DNA from: the human T2T-CHM13v2.0 reference genome, Homo sapiens
Assembly (NCBI RefSeq): GCF_009914755.1
Contig: NC_060938.1
Direction: 5' to 3' (one strand)
DNA: 64,000 nt
Shown here: positions 60,601 to 63,600 of the stretch, piece by piece
Layout of the letters: each line of letters starts with the position of its first letter
Position numbering within the stretch: the first letter of the stretch is position 1
Translations under genes and position numbers: made by a program
Notes under the pieces: generated by a model
Told to the model about the DNA's origin: nothing
What the model saw: the letters and a program-made list of their open reading frames with translations, nothing else
Databases searched by the model: none

Positions 60601-63600
60601 CAAGAAACTTTGTGCCTAACTACCCTAGTTCACAGAGTCAGAATCCTGAAGTGTAGAAAAGGTAAGGCAAAAGGGATTCTTGGAGAGTTCTAAGAGAGAG
60701 TCAAGTTCTGGCCCAACCAGAAGGGCAATCAAGCAGCATGATTTCATATGATTTGCTTTGTATTTGAAACACTGGAATTTGAGGAAACGAGTATTGCTAT
60801 TTTTTTTTTTTTTTTTTTGAGACAGAGACTCGCTCTGTTGCCCAGGCTGGAGTGCAATGGTACAATCTCGGCTCACTGCAACCTCCACCTCCAGGGTTCA
60901 AGTGATTCTCCTGCCTTAGCCTCCCAAGTAGCTGGGATTACGGGTGCCTGCTACCACACCTGGCTAATTTTTGTATTTTTAGTAGAGATGGGGTTTCACC
61001 ACGTTGACCGGACTGGTCTCCAACTCCTGACCTCAGGTGATCCACCCACCTCAGCCTCCCAAAGTGCTGGGATTACAGGTGTGAGCCACCACGCCTGGCC
61101 AAGTATCACTATTTTTATAGTAATATGCTCTTTGCCTAAAAAAAAAAATTTAAAGACACTGACCAGTGGGAGGCCAAGGCAGGCAGATCACTTGAGGTCA
61201 GGAGTTCAAGACCAGCTTGGCTAACGTGGTGAAACCTGGTCTTTACTAAAATAATACAAAAATTAGCTGGGCGTGGTGGTGCATGCCTATAATCCCAGTT
61301 ACTCGGGAGGCTAAGGCAGGATAATCGTTTGAAACCGGGAGGCAGAGGGTGCAGTAAGCTGAGATCATGCCACTGCACTTCAGGCCTGGGTGAGAGAGCA
61401 AGACTCTGTCTCAAGAAGAAGAAAACAACAACAACAACAGAAAAAAGACACTGGCCAGGTCCATCCACCTTATTTAGGCCTACGCCCAGTTTAGAAAAGC
61501 CAAAGAAATGTGTATAGACTTACGATTTCTCAATATCTGCTTGGCTTGGTTAGCCATAATTAAACATGGTTTTTTCTACTAAATTCTTTTGGGATCCTTT
61601 TACCTGAATGCTGCTTTCTTCATCTTCTCGAGGTGACTGTGCAGGCATGACTTCCACATCTGAATTATCAGATGAGGTATTACGTTTTCTCTTCTTACCC
61701 ACTACAGGAGTGATGGTGCTAAAAAGGAAAAACCAAATTCATTTTCAGTGAAAGCAAAGAAAATTTAGGAGTAAAAAAACATAATTAATCTAAACCATCA
61801 CATACAAAACTTCCAGACAGAAGTTTTTAGATCTTCAGTCAATAGGACACACAGCTACTAAATATGGTGTTTGAAAAAAAGAAGATATTAGGGTTTGTAA
61901 ACCACTGACTGACCCTTATACCATATTTGACAAATCCTTGTTATTACTGTGTTCACAAATACCTGAAGGAAGGTAGCACAAGATAGGAGAATAAATACCA
62001 GATTAAGAATTAGAACACTTATTGCAGTTCCACTTCTGTCACTACAAGAGCATTAGTTTCATTATTTGTAAACATTAGAGAGATAATACCTGTCCTGACA
62101 GTTACTGAGGCTCAAATAAGAAACATAAAACTGTCTTTTAAAAGCTGAAAAATCCGGTACAAATACAAAGCATTATTATAATTACACCACAAAGCCTTAA
62201 GAATCCCAGGGAGTAAAAGCTAGTAAGAAAGGAGAAGATACAGGACATGGAAGGGAAAGAGAGGACACTCAATTATGACAAGAATTATGTGGCAAGCCAT
62301 CACTTTTCTGTCAACACTGCTTAAAGCTAATGGTAGATGCTGAAATCTCCAATTCACAGAAGAGATGCAAGAACAGGACAGCTATGTCTCCAGTAGTTCT
62401 CTTTTTACTGATGTGGGTGGTAGGAGGTAGTGAGAAATCTCTTTCACACTACAGTAATACAAAATCAGGACAAATATATGAATGCAGAGTCACAGCTTTT
62501 AAAGGTAACTCCCAGCACAGTAACTATCTTTCCTGTGCCTTCGTGTTTTCCTCTTAAAATATGCTAATTTCAGTTTTCCATTTAACAAATCCTATAAGCA
62601 TTAGGACAGAAAAAAGAAAGGCCTTATTATTTTCTATAATAGATCACCTTGAACTATGTAGCTGGTAAATACACATAAGTTCCTCAATGCTTCTTAGAAA
62701 TGAGTGCTCTGCCCTCAAATGTCCCATCACAATAGCAAGGAGTACTCAATCTTGAGCTTGCTCTTGCCCGTCCCATCCCAATAGCAAGGAGCACTCACTT
62801 GAGCTTGCTCTTGCCCGTCCCATCCCAGTAGCAAGGAGCACTCACTTGAGCTTACTCTTGCACGTCCCATCACAATAGCAAGGAGCACTCGAGCTTACTC
62901 TTGCACGTCCCATCACAATAGCAAGGAGCACTCACTTGAGCTTACTCTTGCACGTCCCATCACAGTAGCAAGGAGCACTCACTTGAGCTTGCTCTTGCCC
63001 TTTGTTTTGGAGGTACCAGATGTTTGCTCTGCCCTCAAATGTCCCATCCCAATAGCAAGGAGTACTCACTTGAGCTTACTCTTGCACGTCCCATCACAGT
63101 AGTAAGGAGCACTCACTTGAGCTTGCTCTTGCCCTTTGTTTTGGAGGTACCAGATGTTTGCTCTGCCCTCAAATGTACCATCCCAATAGCAAGGAGTACT
63201 CACTTGAGCTTACTCTTGCACGTCCCATCACAGTAGCAAGGAGTACTCACTTGAGCTTGCTCTTGCCCTTTGTTTTGGAGGCACCAGATGTTTTACTCTT
63301 CTTTGGCTTCTCCTCTTTCAGCCTCTCCCCAGCACTCTTCTTCCTGCGTTTCTTCTCGCCTTCCTCCTCTGGCCGAACGCTGGGCAACTCGTCCTCATTT
63401 AAGACTCGAGGTATGTTCTGCTCACCGCGGGCACGGGCTCTCGCAATGGCCTCTGCTACAATCCGATTTGCTTTCTCTTGCTTCTTCTGGTGTTCCAATC
63501 TGCGGTTTTCCTCCATTCCTGTCTTTCCCCCCGAATGAGGAGCAGAGCTTGCTGGTGATGACAAAGCTGCCACTTCACTGGCACTCAGAACTTTAACTAC

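What the first reader, a model, noticed from the sequence alone, without database searches (positions are those of the whole stretch)
62706..63293. Minisatellite made of the CHD8 exon-4 splice donor: 8 stacked 5' splice sites, 7 behind an in-frame stop
Seen: the exon end and donor (minus strand ...GCAAGAG[C/T]AAGCTCAA|GTGAGT) have been amplified in tandem. Intact GT donors sit at 63250 (the one in frame with exon 5), 63203, 63116, 63069, 62982, 62935, 62845 and 62798. Spacings are 47/87/47/87/47/90/47, i.e. a 134-bp higher-order unit, and the 87-bp units also recopy about 43 nt of coding sequence (TSG[A/T]SKTKGKSKL). Reading past the first donor gives AAG TGA, so use of any distal donor puts a stop right after ...KSKLK. 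Several units also carry an extra AGA|GTAAGC donor-like site. Established: CHD8 is haploinsufficient (autism/macrocephaly), and premature stops upstream of later junctions trigger NMD. Inference: this array of competing decoy donors could act as a copy-number-tunable control on CHD8 dosage.
Basis: partly seen in the sequence, partly recalled or inferred. Interest (0 to 1): 0.8.

Follow-up and report, generated by a model that had tools for sequence, protein, structure and literature searches.

The report
CHD8 intron minisatellite repeating splice donor
The end of CHD8 exon 4 and the start of its intron have been copied head-to-tail about ten times, leaving seven spare splice signals that are probably silent, an arrangement already known from genes such as F7 and ABCA7.

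Summary
On the minus strand, a 573-bp tandem array (62721-63293; periods 47 and 134) starts inside CHD8 exon 4 and runs into intron 4. It carries 8 identical CAA|GTGAGT donors at exactly the reported positions, 5 extra AGA|GTAAGC sites and 2 broken donor copies. Only the first donor keeps the frame into exon 5. All 12 others put a TGA right after the exon. The donor motif scores at the median of the window's annotated donors. The array has no usable acceptor and is single-copy in the genome.

The kind is not new. Minisatellites whose first unit spans an exon-intron boundary are described for F7, IFI6, CBS, LMNB2, PDGF and ABCA7. In F7 the extra donors work but stay silent. In ABCA7 one-unit retention is about 2% of transcripts and does not depend on repeat length.

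Most likely this is a near-neutral minisatellite whose spare donors are silenced by their position. The proposed copy-number dosage control has no evidence for it here. I could not test repeat-length variation between people, use of the distal donors in RNA, or the state in other primates. Four full-text searches found no paper on this CHD8 array.

The parts
63251..63636 (-). CHD8 exon 4 (386 nt, phase 2 at its 3' end). Its last 43 nt (63293-63251) are the first stretch of the repeat.
   Evidence: Hub annotation table. The translation is open through the exon. Joined to exon 5 it reads ...KSKLNTITP....
62721..63293 (-). The minisatellite. Two full 134-nt higher-order units (43 nt of exon copy + 47-nt unit + 44 nt of intron) are followed by 47-nt units, and the array ends in unique intron sequence.
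   Evidence: TRF periods 47 and 134. The repeat finder family D1. Unit dissection. Higher-order units 1 and 2 differ at 4 of 134 positions.
63245..63253 (-). Authentic exon-4 donor CAA|GTGAGT (G at 63250). It is the only one that keeps the frame into exon 5.
   Evidence: Its weight-matrix score of 8.52 equals the median of the annotated donors.
63247..63249 (-). In-frame TGA formed by intron positions +2 to +4. It ends the reading frame of every transcript that splices from a distal donor or retains the intron.
63198..63206 (-). Pseudo-donor 1, CAA|GTGAGT (G at 63203), 47 nt downstream of the authentic donor.
63111..63119 (-). Pseudo-donor 2 (G at 63116, +134 nt). It is preceded by a 43-nt copy of the exon end, so its context matches the authentic site from about -43 to +47 apart from a few substitutions.
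63064..63072 (-). Pseudo-donor 3 (G at 63069, +181 nt).
62977..62985 (-). Pseudo-donor 4 (G at 62982, +268 nt), preceded by the second 43-nt copy of the exon end.
62930..62938 (-). Pseudo-donor 5 (G at 62935, +315 nt).
62840..62848 (-). Pseudo-donor 6 (G at 62845, +405 nt).
62793..62801 (-). Pseudo-donor 7 (G at 62798, +452 nt). It is the intact donor nearest the exon-5 acceptor.
63117..63159 (-). First intronic copy of 43 nt of coding sequence (would read [16 protein letters not shown] changed to ACC).
62983..63025 (-). Second intronic copy of the same 43 nt of coding sequence.
62855..63213 (-). Span holding five extra AGA|GTAAGC donor-like sites (G at 63213, 63079, 62945, 62898, 62855). Each lies 10 nt before the next unit's donor position and was made by a C-to-T change in the copied exon tail.
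   Evidence: Weight-matrix score 6.52, higher than 11 of 43 annotated donors. All give the same stop.
62885..62892 (-). Dead donor copy: a 4-nt deletion leaves ...AAGCTC|GAGTGC with no GT.
62743..62753 (-). Dead donor copy at the 3' end of the array (CAAGATTGAGT; a 2-nt insertion splits the GT). It continues into unique intron sequence.
61604..61718 (-). CHD8 exon 5, whose acceptor is the only acceptor available to all these donors.
   Evidence: Hub annotation table.. No acceptor-like AG inside the array.

Best explanation
This is an intronic minisatellite born from the CHD8 exon-4/intron-4 boundary. Slippage or unequal exchange produced two nested duplication types. One is a 47-nt unit made of 18 nt of exon tail plus 29 nt of intron start. 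The other is an 87-nt unit made of 44 nt of intron plus 43 nt of exon. Together they form a 134-nt higher-order unit. The array carries seven full copies of the authentic donor, which look competent but act as pseudo-sites. The spliceosome uses the most upstream donor, because it closes the shortest exon 4 and is met first in the 5'-to-3' direction. The distal donors stay silent or leak at a low level into transcripts that carry a premature stop and are degraded. The net effect on CHD8 output is small, so the array is close to neutral. If the authentic donor were mutated, the next pseudo-site would probably take over, but it could not rescue the reading frame. Shown here: the anatomy, the donor strength, the reading-frame consequences and the lack of acceptors. 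Inferred: the silence of the distal sites and the neutrality.
For: All 8 donors share the same 9-mer. Its score of 8.52 is the median of the window's annotated donors and is higher than 23 of the 43 others. Predicted U1 pairing differs by only 0.3 kcal/mol between copies. Sequence alone therefore cannot pick the first site, which leaves position as the deciding factor. Only the first donor keeps the frame, and the 12 other sites all stop at codon 130. CHD8 protein must therefore come from first-site splicing, as the RefSeq model in the hub table has it. Use of a distal donor would lengthen exon 4 from 386 nt to 433-838 nt. None of the 58 AG dinucleotides in the array reaches the weakest of the 44 annotated acceptors, so the units cannot form pseudo-exons. 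The precedent with the same anatomy is F7 intron 7: the pseudo-sites are functional, are never used while the first site is intact, and the next one downstream is activated when the first is mutated (PMC1557585). That paper's introduction says LMNB2 and PDGF also use only the authentic site. The ABCA7 cryptic-donor isoform is 2 +/- 1% of transcripts and independent of repeat length (PMC5954066). In the expression tables whose supplements I could search, this array is never the lead repeat for CHD8.
Against: I could examine no RNA data, and degraded isoforms are under-represented at steady state, so a sizeable leak is not excluded. The F7 paper's introduction reports that IFI6 and CBS do use the first two pseudo-sites constitutively. 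In vitro, when two strong donors are both bound by U1, splicing goes almost wholly to the downstream, intron-proximal site (PMC3413131, passages read). That rule would predict use of the donor at 62798. The repeat catalogues I searched may never have genotyped this 573-bp array. Bakhtiari 2021 lists only a 15-bp coding repeat under the CHD8 label, and Lu 2023 tested 3 unnamed repeats for CHD8. Neutrality is inferred, not measured.
Confidence: 0.65

Rival explanations
1. The distal donors compete with the authentic one, a fraction of transcripts splice from them, gain the TGA and are degraded. That fraction rises with unit number, so array length sets CHD8 dosage.
For: There are seven donors with the same 9-mer as the authentic site and five weaker GTAAGC sites within 452 nt. 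Every one gives a premature stop. Two pseudo-sites (63116, 62982) also carry 43 nt of the true upstream exon context. IFI6, CBS and ABCA7 do use proximal pseudo-sites. The in vitro proximity rule favours downstream sites.
Against: In F7 the identical pseudo-sites are unused. In ABCA7 use of the cryptic donor is about 2% and does not scale with repeat length. In every studied case only the first one or two pseudo-sites are ever used, so adding units at the far end should change little. The supplied RefSeq table shows no alternative exon-4 end. CHD8 is reported to tolerate loss of function poorly (recalled knowledge), which makes a common leaky allele unlikely.
Confidence: 0.1
2. An ABCA7-like length effect that does not depend on donor choice. 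A longer array, loaded with several U1 particles, slows or disturbs pairing of exon 4 with exon 5. This raises intron-4 retention or skipping of exon 4 or 5, and so lowers productive mRNA.
For: In ABCA7, skipping of the downstream exon rises 3.2-fold from the shortest to the longest repeat combination, while use of the cryptic donor does not change. In F7, exon skipping grows as the used donor moves further from the exon. Exon 4 is 386 nt, so skipping it would shift the frame.
Against: The array here is only 573 bp in a 1532-nt intron, whereas the ABCA7 effects were seen with alleles of several kilobases. I have no length variation data and no RNA data.
Confidence: 0.12
3. A helpful role. The extra U1-binding sites raise the local U1 concentration, speed up splicing at the authentic site, or protect the early transcript from premature cleavage and polyadenylation.
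For: [quoted passage not shown] U1 protection against premature polyadenylation is established knowledge (recalled).
Against: Intron 4 contains no AATAAA or ATTAAA hexamer that would need suppressing. In the Hicks study, as I recall it, the site that benefits is the intron-proximal one, which here would be a pseudo-site. Nothing in the sequence shows selection to keep the array: 2 of 10 donor copies are already dead.
Confidence: 0.08
4. Assembly artefact: the repeat is mis-assembled or inflated in this assembly.
For: None found. It can only be said that repeats are a general source of assembly error.
Against: The units differ from each other in an ordered pattern of variants: 4 of 134 positions between higher-order units 1 and 2, and distinct unit subtypes. 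The array is short (573 bp) and joins cleanly to unique exon and unique intron sequence. It lies at a single locus.
Confidence: 0.02

Closest known systems
F7 intron 7 minisatellite (37-bp units, 5 to 9 copies; Borensztajn et al. 2006, PMC1557585)
   Same: The first unit spans the exon-intron boundary. The authentic donor is followed by pseudo-sites of identical sequence. The normal transcript uses the most upstream site.
   Different: An F7 unit holds only 4 nt of exon, whereas CHD8 units hold 18 or 43 nt and form a 47/87/134-nt hierarchy. The F7 donor is the weak UGG|gugggu, whereas the CHD8 donor scores at the window's median. Some F7 pseudo-sites would keep the frame, whereas none does in CHD8. 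For CHD8, length variation and silence of the pseudo-sites are untested.
ABCA7 intron 18 repeat (25-bp units; De Roeck et al. 2018, PMC5954066)
   Same: The repeat directly flanks an exon and includes its donor. Use of a cryptic donor retains one unit and gives a premature stop with NMD. The host gene is a disease gene that is harmed by such stops.
   Different: The ABCA7 unit starts at the GT and copies no exon sequence. ABCA7 alleles range from about 0.3 to nearly 10 kb, whereas the CHD8 array is 573 bp here. For ABCA7, disease association and a length effect on exon 19 skipping are shown (title and section 21). Nothing comparable is known for CHD8.
IFI6 (6-16) intron 2, CBS intron 13, LMNB2 and PDGF intron 4 minisatellites (as listed in the introduction of PMC1557585)
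   Same: In each, a minisatellite's first monomer spans an exon-intron boundary and repeats the donor.
   Different: IFI6 and CBS constitutively use two pseudo-sites, while LMNB2 and PDGF use only the authentic site. I saw these cases only as summarised in that introduction, not in the original papers.
Decoy exons that promote intron retention (Parra et al. 2018, bioRxiv 10.1101/258897; only the search listing and abstract start were seen)
   Same: Non-productive splice signals inside an intron that could engage splicing factors.
   Different: A decoy exon needs both an acceptor and a donor. The CHD8 array has no acceptor-like AG (0 of 58).

Membership tests
Exon-intron-boundary minisatellite with repeated 5' splice sites (F7 / ABCA7 / CBS / IFI6 class) | Tandem array whose first monomer spans the exon-intron boundary | tested here: met
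   The array 62721-63293 starts 43 nt inside exon 4 (which ends at 63251) and runs into intron 4.
Exon-intron-boundary minisatellite with repeated 5' splice sites (F7 / ABCA7 / CBS / IFI6 class) | The authentic donor sequence is repeated unchanged in the following monomers | tested here: met
   8 of 10 copies of the intron start keep the identical 9-mer CAA|GTGAGT.
Exon-intron-boundary minisatellite with repeated 5' splice sites (F7 / ABCA7 / CBS / IFI6 class) | In vivo, splicing uses the most upstream site (or at most the first two or three) | not testable with these tools
   No RNA data were available. Indirectly, only the first donor keeps the frame, and the supplied RefSeq model uses it.
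Exon-intron-boundary minisatellite with repeated 5' splice sites (F7 / ABCA7 / CBS / IFI6 class) | Copy number varies between individuals | not testable with these tools
   Only one human assembly is held. Searchable supplements of four repeat studies do not list this array under CHD8.
Alternative splicing coupled to NMD as a dosage control | The alternative event introduces a stop codon upstream of later exon junctions | tested here: met
   All 12 distal sites give a TGA at codon 130 of the exon, 33-448 nt before the new exon 4-5 junction and ahead of all later junctions.
Alternative splicing coupled to NMD as a dosage control | The alternative site is actually used and its use is regulated or genetically variable | not testable with these tools
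   No junction data. The supplied RefSeq table lists no alternative exon-4 end.
Decoy (pseudo-) exon | An acceptor-like site upstream of the donor, within exon-size distance | tested here: not met
   0 of 58 AG dinucleotides in the array reach the weakest of the 44 annotated acceptors. The best scores -2.3, against an annotated minimum of -0.4 and median of 8.1.
Classical hypervariable minisatellite with a recombination-hotspot motif | Presence of the PRDM9 13-mer CCNCCNTNNCCNC or the GGGCAGGANG core (both motifs recalled from memory) | tested here: not met
   None of the 5 exact 13-mer matches and none of the 27 core matches (1 or fewer mismatches) in the window lies in 62721-63293.

The most novel reading that the evidence does not exclude
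The array varies in length between people, and longer alleles lower productive CHD8 mRNA. The loss could come from leakage through the proximal pseudo-donors into degraded transcripts, or from slower exon 4-5 pairing. This would make it a common cis modifier of CHD8 dosage and of the penetrance of CHD8-related autism and macrocephaly. Because two pseudo-sites carry 43 nt of true exon context, it would also be the cleanest natural test of whether position alone decides among identical donors.
Probability: 0.08. Interest if true: 0.75.

Novelty: new member of a known kind. Interest (0 to 1): 0.35.

Why it matters
CHD8 is a major autism gene that is described as sensitive to dosage (recalled knowledge). 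That makes any structure able to divert transcripts to decay worth one look in existing long-read DNA and RNA data.

Three practical points follow by inference. First, a mutation of the authentic exon-4 donor would probably shift splicing 47 nt downstream, as happens in F7. Here that cannot rescue the frame, so such variants should behave as loss of function.

Second, the last 43 nt of exon 4 occur three times within 270 bp, and the intronic copies read ACC where the exon reads GCC. Short reads from the intronic copies could be mis-placed on the exon and mimic an Ala-to-Thr variant.

Third, the array bears on a conflict in the splicing literature. The first-site rule was seen in cells for F7, while the intron-proximal rule was seen in vitro. 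Two CHD8 pseudo-sites share the exon context of the real site, so they offer a natural test.

If the array proves invariant and silent, it is simply one more example of a known curiosity.

Tried and rejected
1. Decoy-exon reading. I scored every AG in the array with an acceptor matrix built from the 44 annotated acceptors. None of the 58 reached the weakest real acceptor, so I rejected this reading.

2. RNA structure masking the pseudo-sites. The mean unpaired probability of the donor 9-mer was 0.39 for the authentic site and 0.22, 0.46, 0.25, 0.24, 0.23, 0.05 and 0.15 for the seven others, against a region mean of 0.36. One pseudo-site is more open than the real one, so this does not explain the choice. 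I count it as inconclusive.

3. Protection from premature polyadenylation. Intron 4 has no AATAAA or ATTAAA hexamer.

4. Recombination-hotspot or classical minisatellite core motifs (both recalled). Neither occurs in the array.

5. Known RNA family. Rfam gave 0 matches at gathering score on 61500-64000.

6. Dispersed repeat or other copies. Only this locus matches in the genome.

7. Literature on this array. The searches were CHD8+VNTR (12 papers, none on it by title; the best hit cites CHD8 only in its references), CHD8+minisatellite (3 papers, unrelated), CHD8+tandem repeat+splice site+intronic (4 papers; the one opened cites CHD8 only in its references), and a mixed CHD8/poison-exon search that was diluted by its other terms.

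8. Supplements. Cell Genom 2024 had 0 CHD8 rows in the one file held. Bakhtiari 2021 had one CHD8 row, a 15-bp coding repeat elsewhere in the gene. Lu 2021 had 0. Lu 2023 had one CHD8 row, and its file 1 could not be searched. That repeat lies at chr14:21442635-21442834 in GRCh38, about 15 kb upstream of this array by my offset estimate, so it is not this array.

9. Mukamel 2023 (CUL4A repeat) and Roca 2013 were not held. What I remember of them is not used as evidence.

10. Dating by unit divergence (4 of 134 differences between higher-order units). I judged this unreliable because minisatellites undergo conversion, so no date is claimed.

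Full report
**What is there**

All coordinates below are read on the minus strand. CHD8 exon 4 (63251-63636, from the hub table) ends ...GGGCAAGAGCAAGCTCAA and is followed by GTGAGTACTCC.... 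Tandem Repeats Finder reports one array on 62721-63293. It has a 47-nt period (12.0 copies, 72% matches) and a 134-nt period (3.9 copies, 89% matches, score 767). A gap-free repeat search finds the same 134-nt family.

Cutting the array at each donor gives unit lengths of 47, 87, 47, 87, 47, 90 and 47 nt, then a final 47-nt unit that runs into a broken copy and the unique intron.

- **The 47-nt unit** is 29 nt of intron start plus an 18-nt copy of the exon tail.
- **The 87-nt unit** is 44 nt of intron start plus a 43-nt copy of the exon end. That copy would read [13 protein letters not shown], with ACC where the exon has GCC.
- **The coding stretch** therefore occurs three times: in the exon, at 63159-63117 and at 63025-62983.
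- **The higher-order units** 1 and 2 differ at 4 of 134 positions.
- **The 90-nt interval** is a 47-nt unit plus a 43-nt unit whose donor was removed by a 4-nt deletion near 62892.
- **The last copy**, at 62751-62749, has its GT split by a 2-nt insertion and continues into unique intron sequence.

**The donors**

Eight copies keep the identical 9-mer CAA|GTGAGT, with the G at 63250, 63203, 63116, 63069, 62982, 62935, 62845 and 62798. Five further AGA|GTAAGC sites lie at 63213, 63079, 62945, 62898 and 62855. They were created by a C-to-T change in the copied exon tail.

I first checked the hub's exon table against the sequence. Of 44 annotated donors, 43 start with GT, and all 44 acceptors end in AG. 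I then built a weight matrix from the 43 other annotated donors.

| Measure | Result |
|---|---|
| Score of CAAGTGAGT | 8.52, equal to the median of annotated donors and higher than 23 of 43 |
| Score of AGAGTAAGC | 6.52, higher than 11 of 43 |
| GT dinucleotides on the CHD8 strand, 20676-64000 | 2338 |
| Of these, scoring at least 8.52 | 44: 21 annotated donors, 7 in the array, 16 elsewhere |
| Predicted U1 pairing energy | -7.1 kcal/mol at 63250, 63203 and 63069 (A at +7); -6.8 at the other five (G at +7); annotated median -8.3 |

The pseudo-sites are therefore ordinary, competent-looking donors that cannot be told apart from the real one by sequence.

**Is it more than chance?**

Yes. Only 1 of 44 annotated donors has its 20-mer repeated (3 or fewer mismatches) in the next 1.5 kb, and that one has 7 repeats. 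Every other TRF row of score 100 or more in the window has an Alu-like consensus by my reading. The array matches no other place in the 3.1-Gb genome (the tool warns its counts are lower bounds).

**Consequences for the reading frame**

Only the donor at 63250 joins exon 5 (61604-61718) in frame, giving ...[14 protein letters not shown]... All seven distal GTGAGT sites and all five GTAAGC sites meet the TGA at 63249-63247. That stop is codon 130 of the exon and lies 33-448 nt before the new junction. Exon 4 would grow from 386 nt to 423-838 nt. With more than thirty junctions downstream, established knowledge of NMD predicts that such transcripts are degraded.

**What the array lacks**

- **Acceptors.** None of its 58 AG dinucleotides scores as high as the weakest annotated acceptor (best -2.3, annotated minimum -0.4, median 8.1). 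The units cannot form pseudo-exons and can only act as alternative ends of exon 4.
- **Polyadenylation signals.** Intron 4 (1532 nt) has no AATAAA or ATTAAA hexamer.
- **Known RNA families.** Rfam finds none at gathering score.
- **Recombination motifs.** The PRDM9 13-mer and the classical minisatellite core, both recalled motifs, are absent from the array.
- **A structural explanation.** Predicted RNA structure does not separate the real site from the others. The unpaired probability is 0.39 for the real site and 0.05-0.46 for the pseudo-sites.

**Comparison with what is known**

The kind is known. Borensztajn et al. 2006 (PMC1557585; abstract, introduction, section 6 and discussion read) describe minisatellites whose first monomer spans an exon-intron boundary, so that the donor is repeated in the intron. 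They list five cases.

| Gene | Array | Donor usage reported |
|---|---|---|
| F7 intron 7 | 37-bp units, 5-9 copies | Only the authentic site |
| IFI6 (6-16) intron 2 | 25 pseudo-sites | Authentic site plus the two nearest pseudo-sites |
| CBS intron 13 | 15-20 repeats | Authentic site plus two pseudo-sites |
| LMNB2 | 100-bp units, 10-15 repeats | Only the authentic site |
| PDGF intron 4 | 81-bp units, 16-18 repeats | Only the authentic site |

With 50 F7 minigene constructs they showed three things. The pseudo-sites are functional. They never compete while the first site is intact. When upstream sites are inactivated, the next one downstream is used, with more exon skipping the further away it lies.

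De Roeck et al. 2018 (PMC5954066; passages and section 21 read) describe a 25-bp repeat in ABCA7 intron 18 that includes the exon-18 donor. Use of a cryptic donor retains one unit, gives a premature stop, makes up 2 +/- 1% of transcripts, and does not depend on repeat length. Skipping of exon 19, in contrast, rises with length.

Against the first-site rule, Hodson et al. 2012 (PMC3413131; passages read) report results from in vitro splicing. [quoted passage not shown]

**Best reading**

The array is a further member of this class. It differs from F7 and ABCA7 in three ways:

- It copies much more exon sequence: 18 or 43 nt, against 4 nt in F7 and none in ABCA7.
- It has a two-level 47/87/134-nt architecture.
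- None of its pseudo-sites can keep the frame.

The protein-coding transcript can only come from the first donor, and the closest studied case (F7) keeps identical pseudo-sites silent. I therefore consider a near-neutral array with position-silenced pseudo-sites most likely (0.65).

In every studied case at most the first two pseudo-sites are used, so units added at the far end should matter little. In ABCA7, use of the cryptic donor is independent of length.

An ABCA7-like length effect on intron retention or exon skipping is a separate possibility (0.12). A helpful role in recruiting U1 is less likely (0.08). An assembly artefact is very unlikely (0.02).

**Is this array already in print?**

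Four full-text searches found nothing on it: CHD8+VNTR (12 papers), CHD8+minisatellite (3 papers), CHD8+tandem repeat+splice site+intronic (4 papers), and a diluted mixed search. The papers I opened cite CHD8 only in their reference lists.

I also searched the supplements of four repeat-expression studies.

- **Cell Genom 2024:** no CHD8 row in the one file held.
- **Lu 2021:** no CHD8 row.
- **Bakhtiari 2021:** only a 15-bp coding repeat elsewhere in CHD8.
- **Lu 2023:** one CHD8 row for heart left ventricle, with 3 repeats tested. The lead repeat is at GRCh38 chr14:21442635-21442834, with slope -0.19 and q 0.044. One file of that paper could not be searched.

To place the Lu 2023 repeat I aligned the 3' ends of the gene spans in the two assemblies, which differ by 95 bp overall. 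On that offset the repeat lies near window position 78.1 kb. That is outside the window and about 15 kb from this array.

Whether this array was genotyped in any of these studies is unknown. Their silence is therefore only weak evidence against an expression effect.

**What stays open**

I could not test length variation between people, junction usage in RNA, or the state of the boundary in other primates. No human population, RNA or primate data were within reach. SpliceAI and MaxEntScan were not available, and my splice-site scores rest on matrices built from this window alone.

Noticed in passing
outside the window, about window position 78.1 kb (GRCh38 chr14:21442635-21442834 by my offset estimate): The supplement of Lu et al. 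2023 lists a different CHD8 intronic repeat as the lead expression-associated repeat for CHD8 in heart left ventricle (slope -0.19, nominal p 2.8e-4, q 0.044, 3 repeats tested). This is a weak signal and I did not look at the sequence.
   Followed up: partly
window about 21194-21240 (GRCh38 chr14:21385712-21385758 by my offset estimate): The supplement of Bakhtiari et al. 2021 lists a 15-bp coding tandem repeat (unit TCATCCTCATCGTCA as printed there) in the last CHD8 exon. It was not flagged as expression-associated.
   Followed up: no
window 63117-63159 and 62983-63025 versus exon 63251-63293: The intronic copies of the exon end differ from the exon by one base, so that GCC (Ala) reads ACC (Thr). 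Short reads from the intronic copies could be mis-placed on the exon and mimic a missense variant. This is inference only.
   Followed up: no
window 63240-63247 and the same place in the units at 63203 and 63069: In the three units with A at donor position +7, intron positions +3 to +10 (GAGTACTC) form a perfect 8-nt palindrome. In addition, AGCAAG in the exon tail is complementary to CTTGCT at +12 to +17, so each donor could sit in a small hairpin. I read this from the sequence. The fold showed no consistent difference between the real and pseudo sites.
   Followed up: partly
window 37435 (CHD8 exon 37435-37614): One of the 44 annotated donors is a GC donor (AAG|GCATGT), and the other 43 are GT.
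   Followed up: no
window 22682-23307, 24482-25099, 39290-39891, 52923-53240, 58133-58698: All other TRF rows of score 100 or more have Alu-like consensus units, meaning adjacent or dimeric Alu elements rather than minisatellites (the Alu identification is my reading of the consensus).
   Followed up: no
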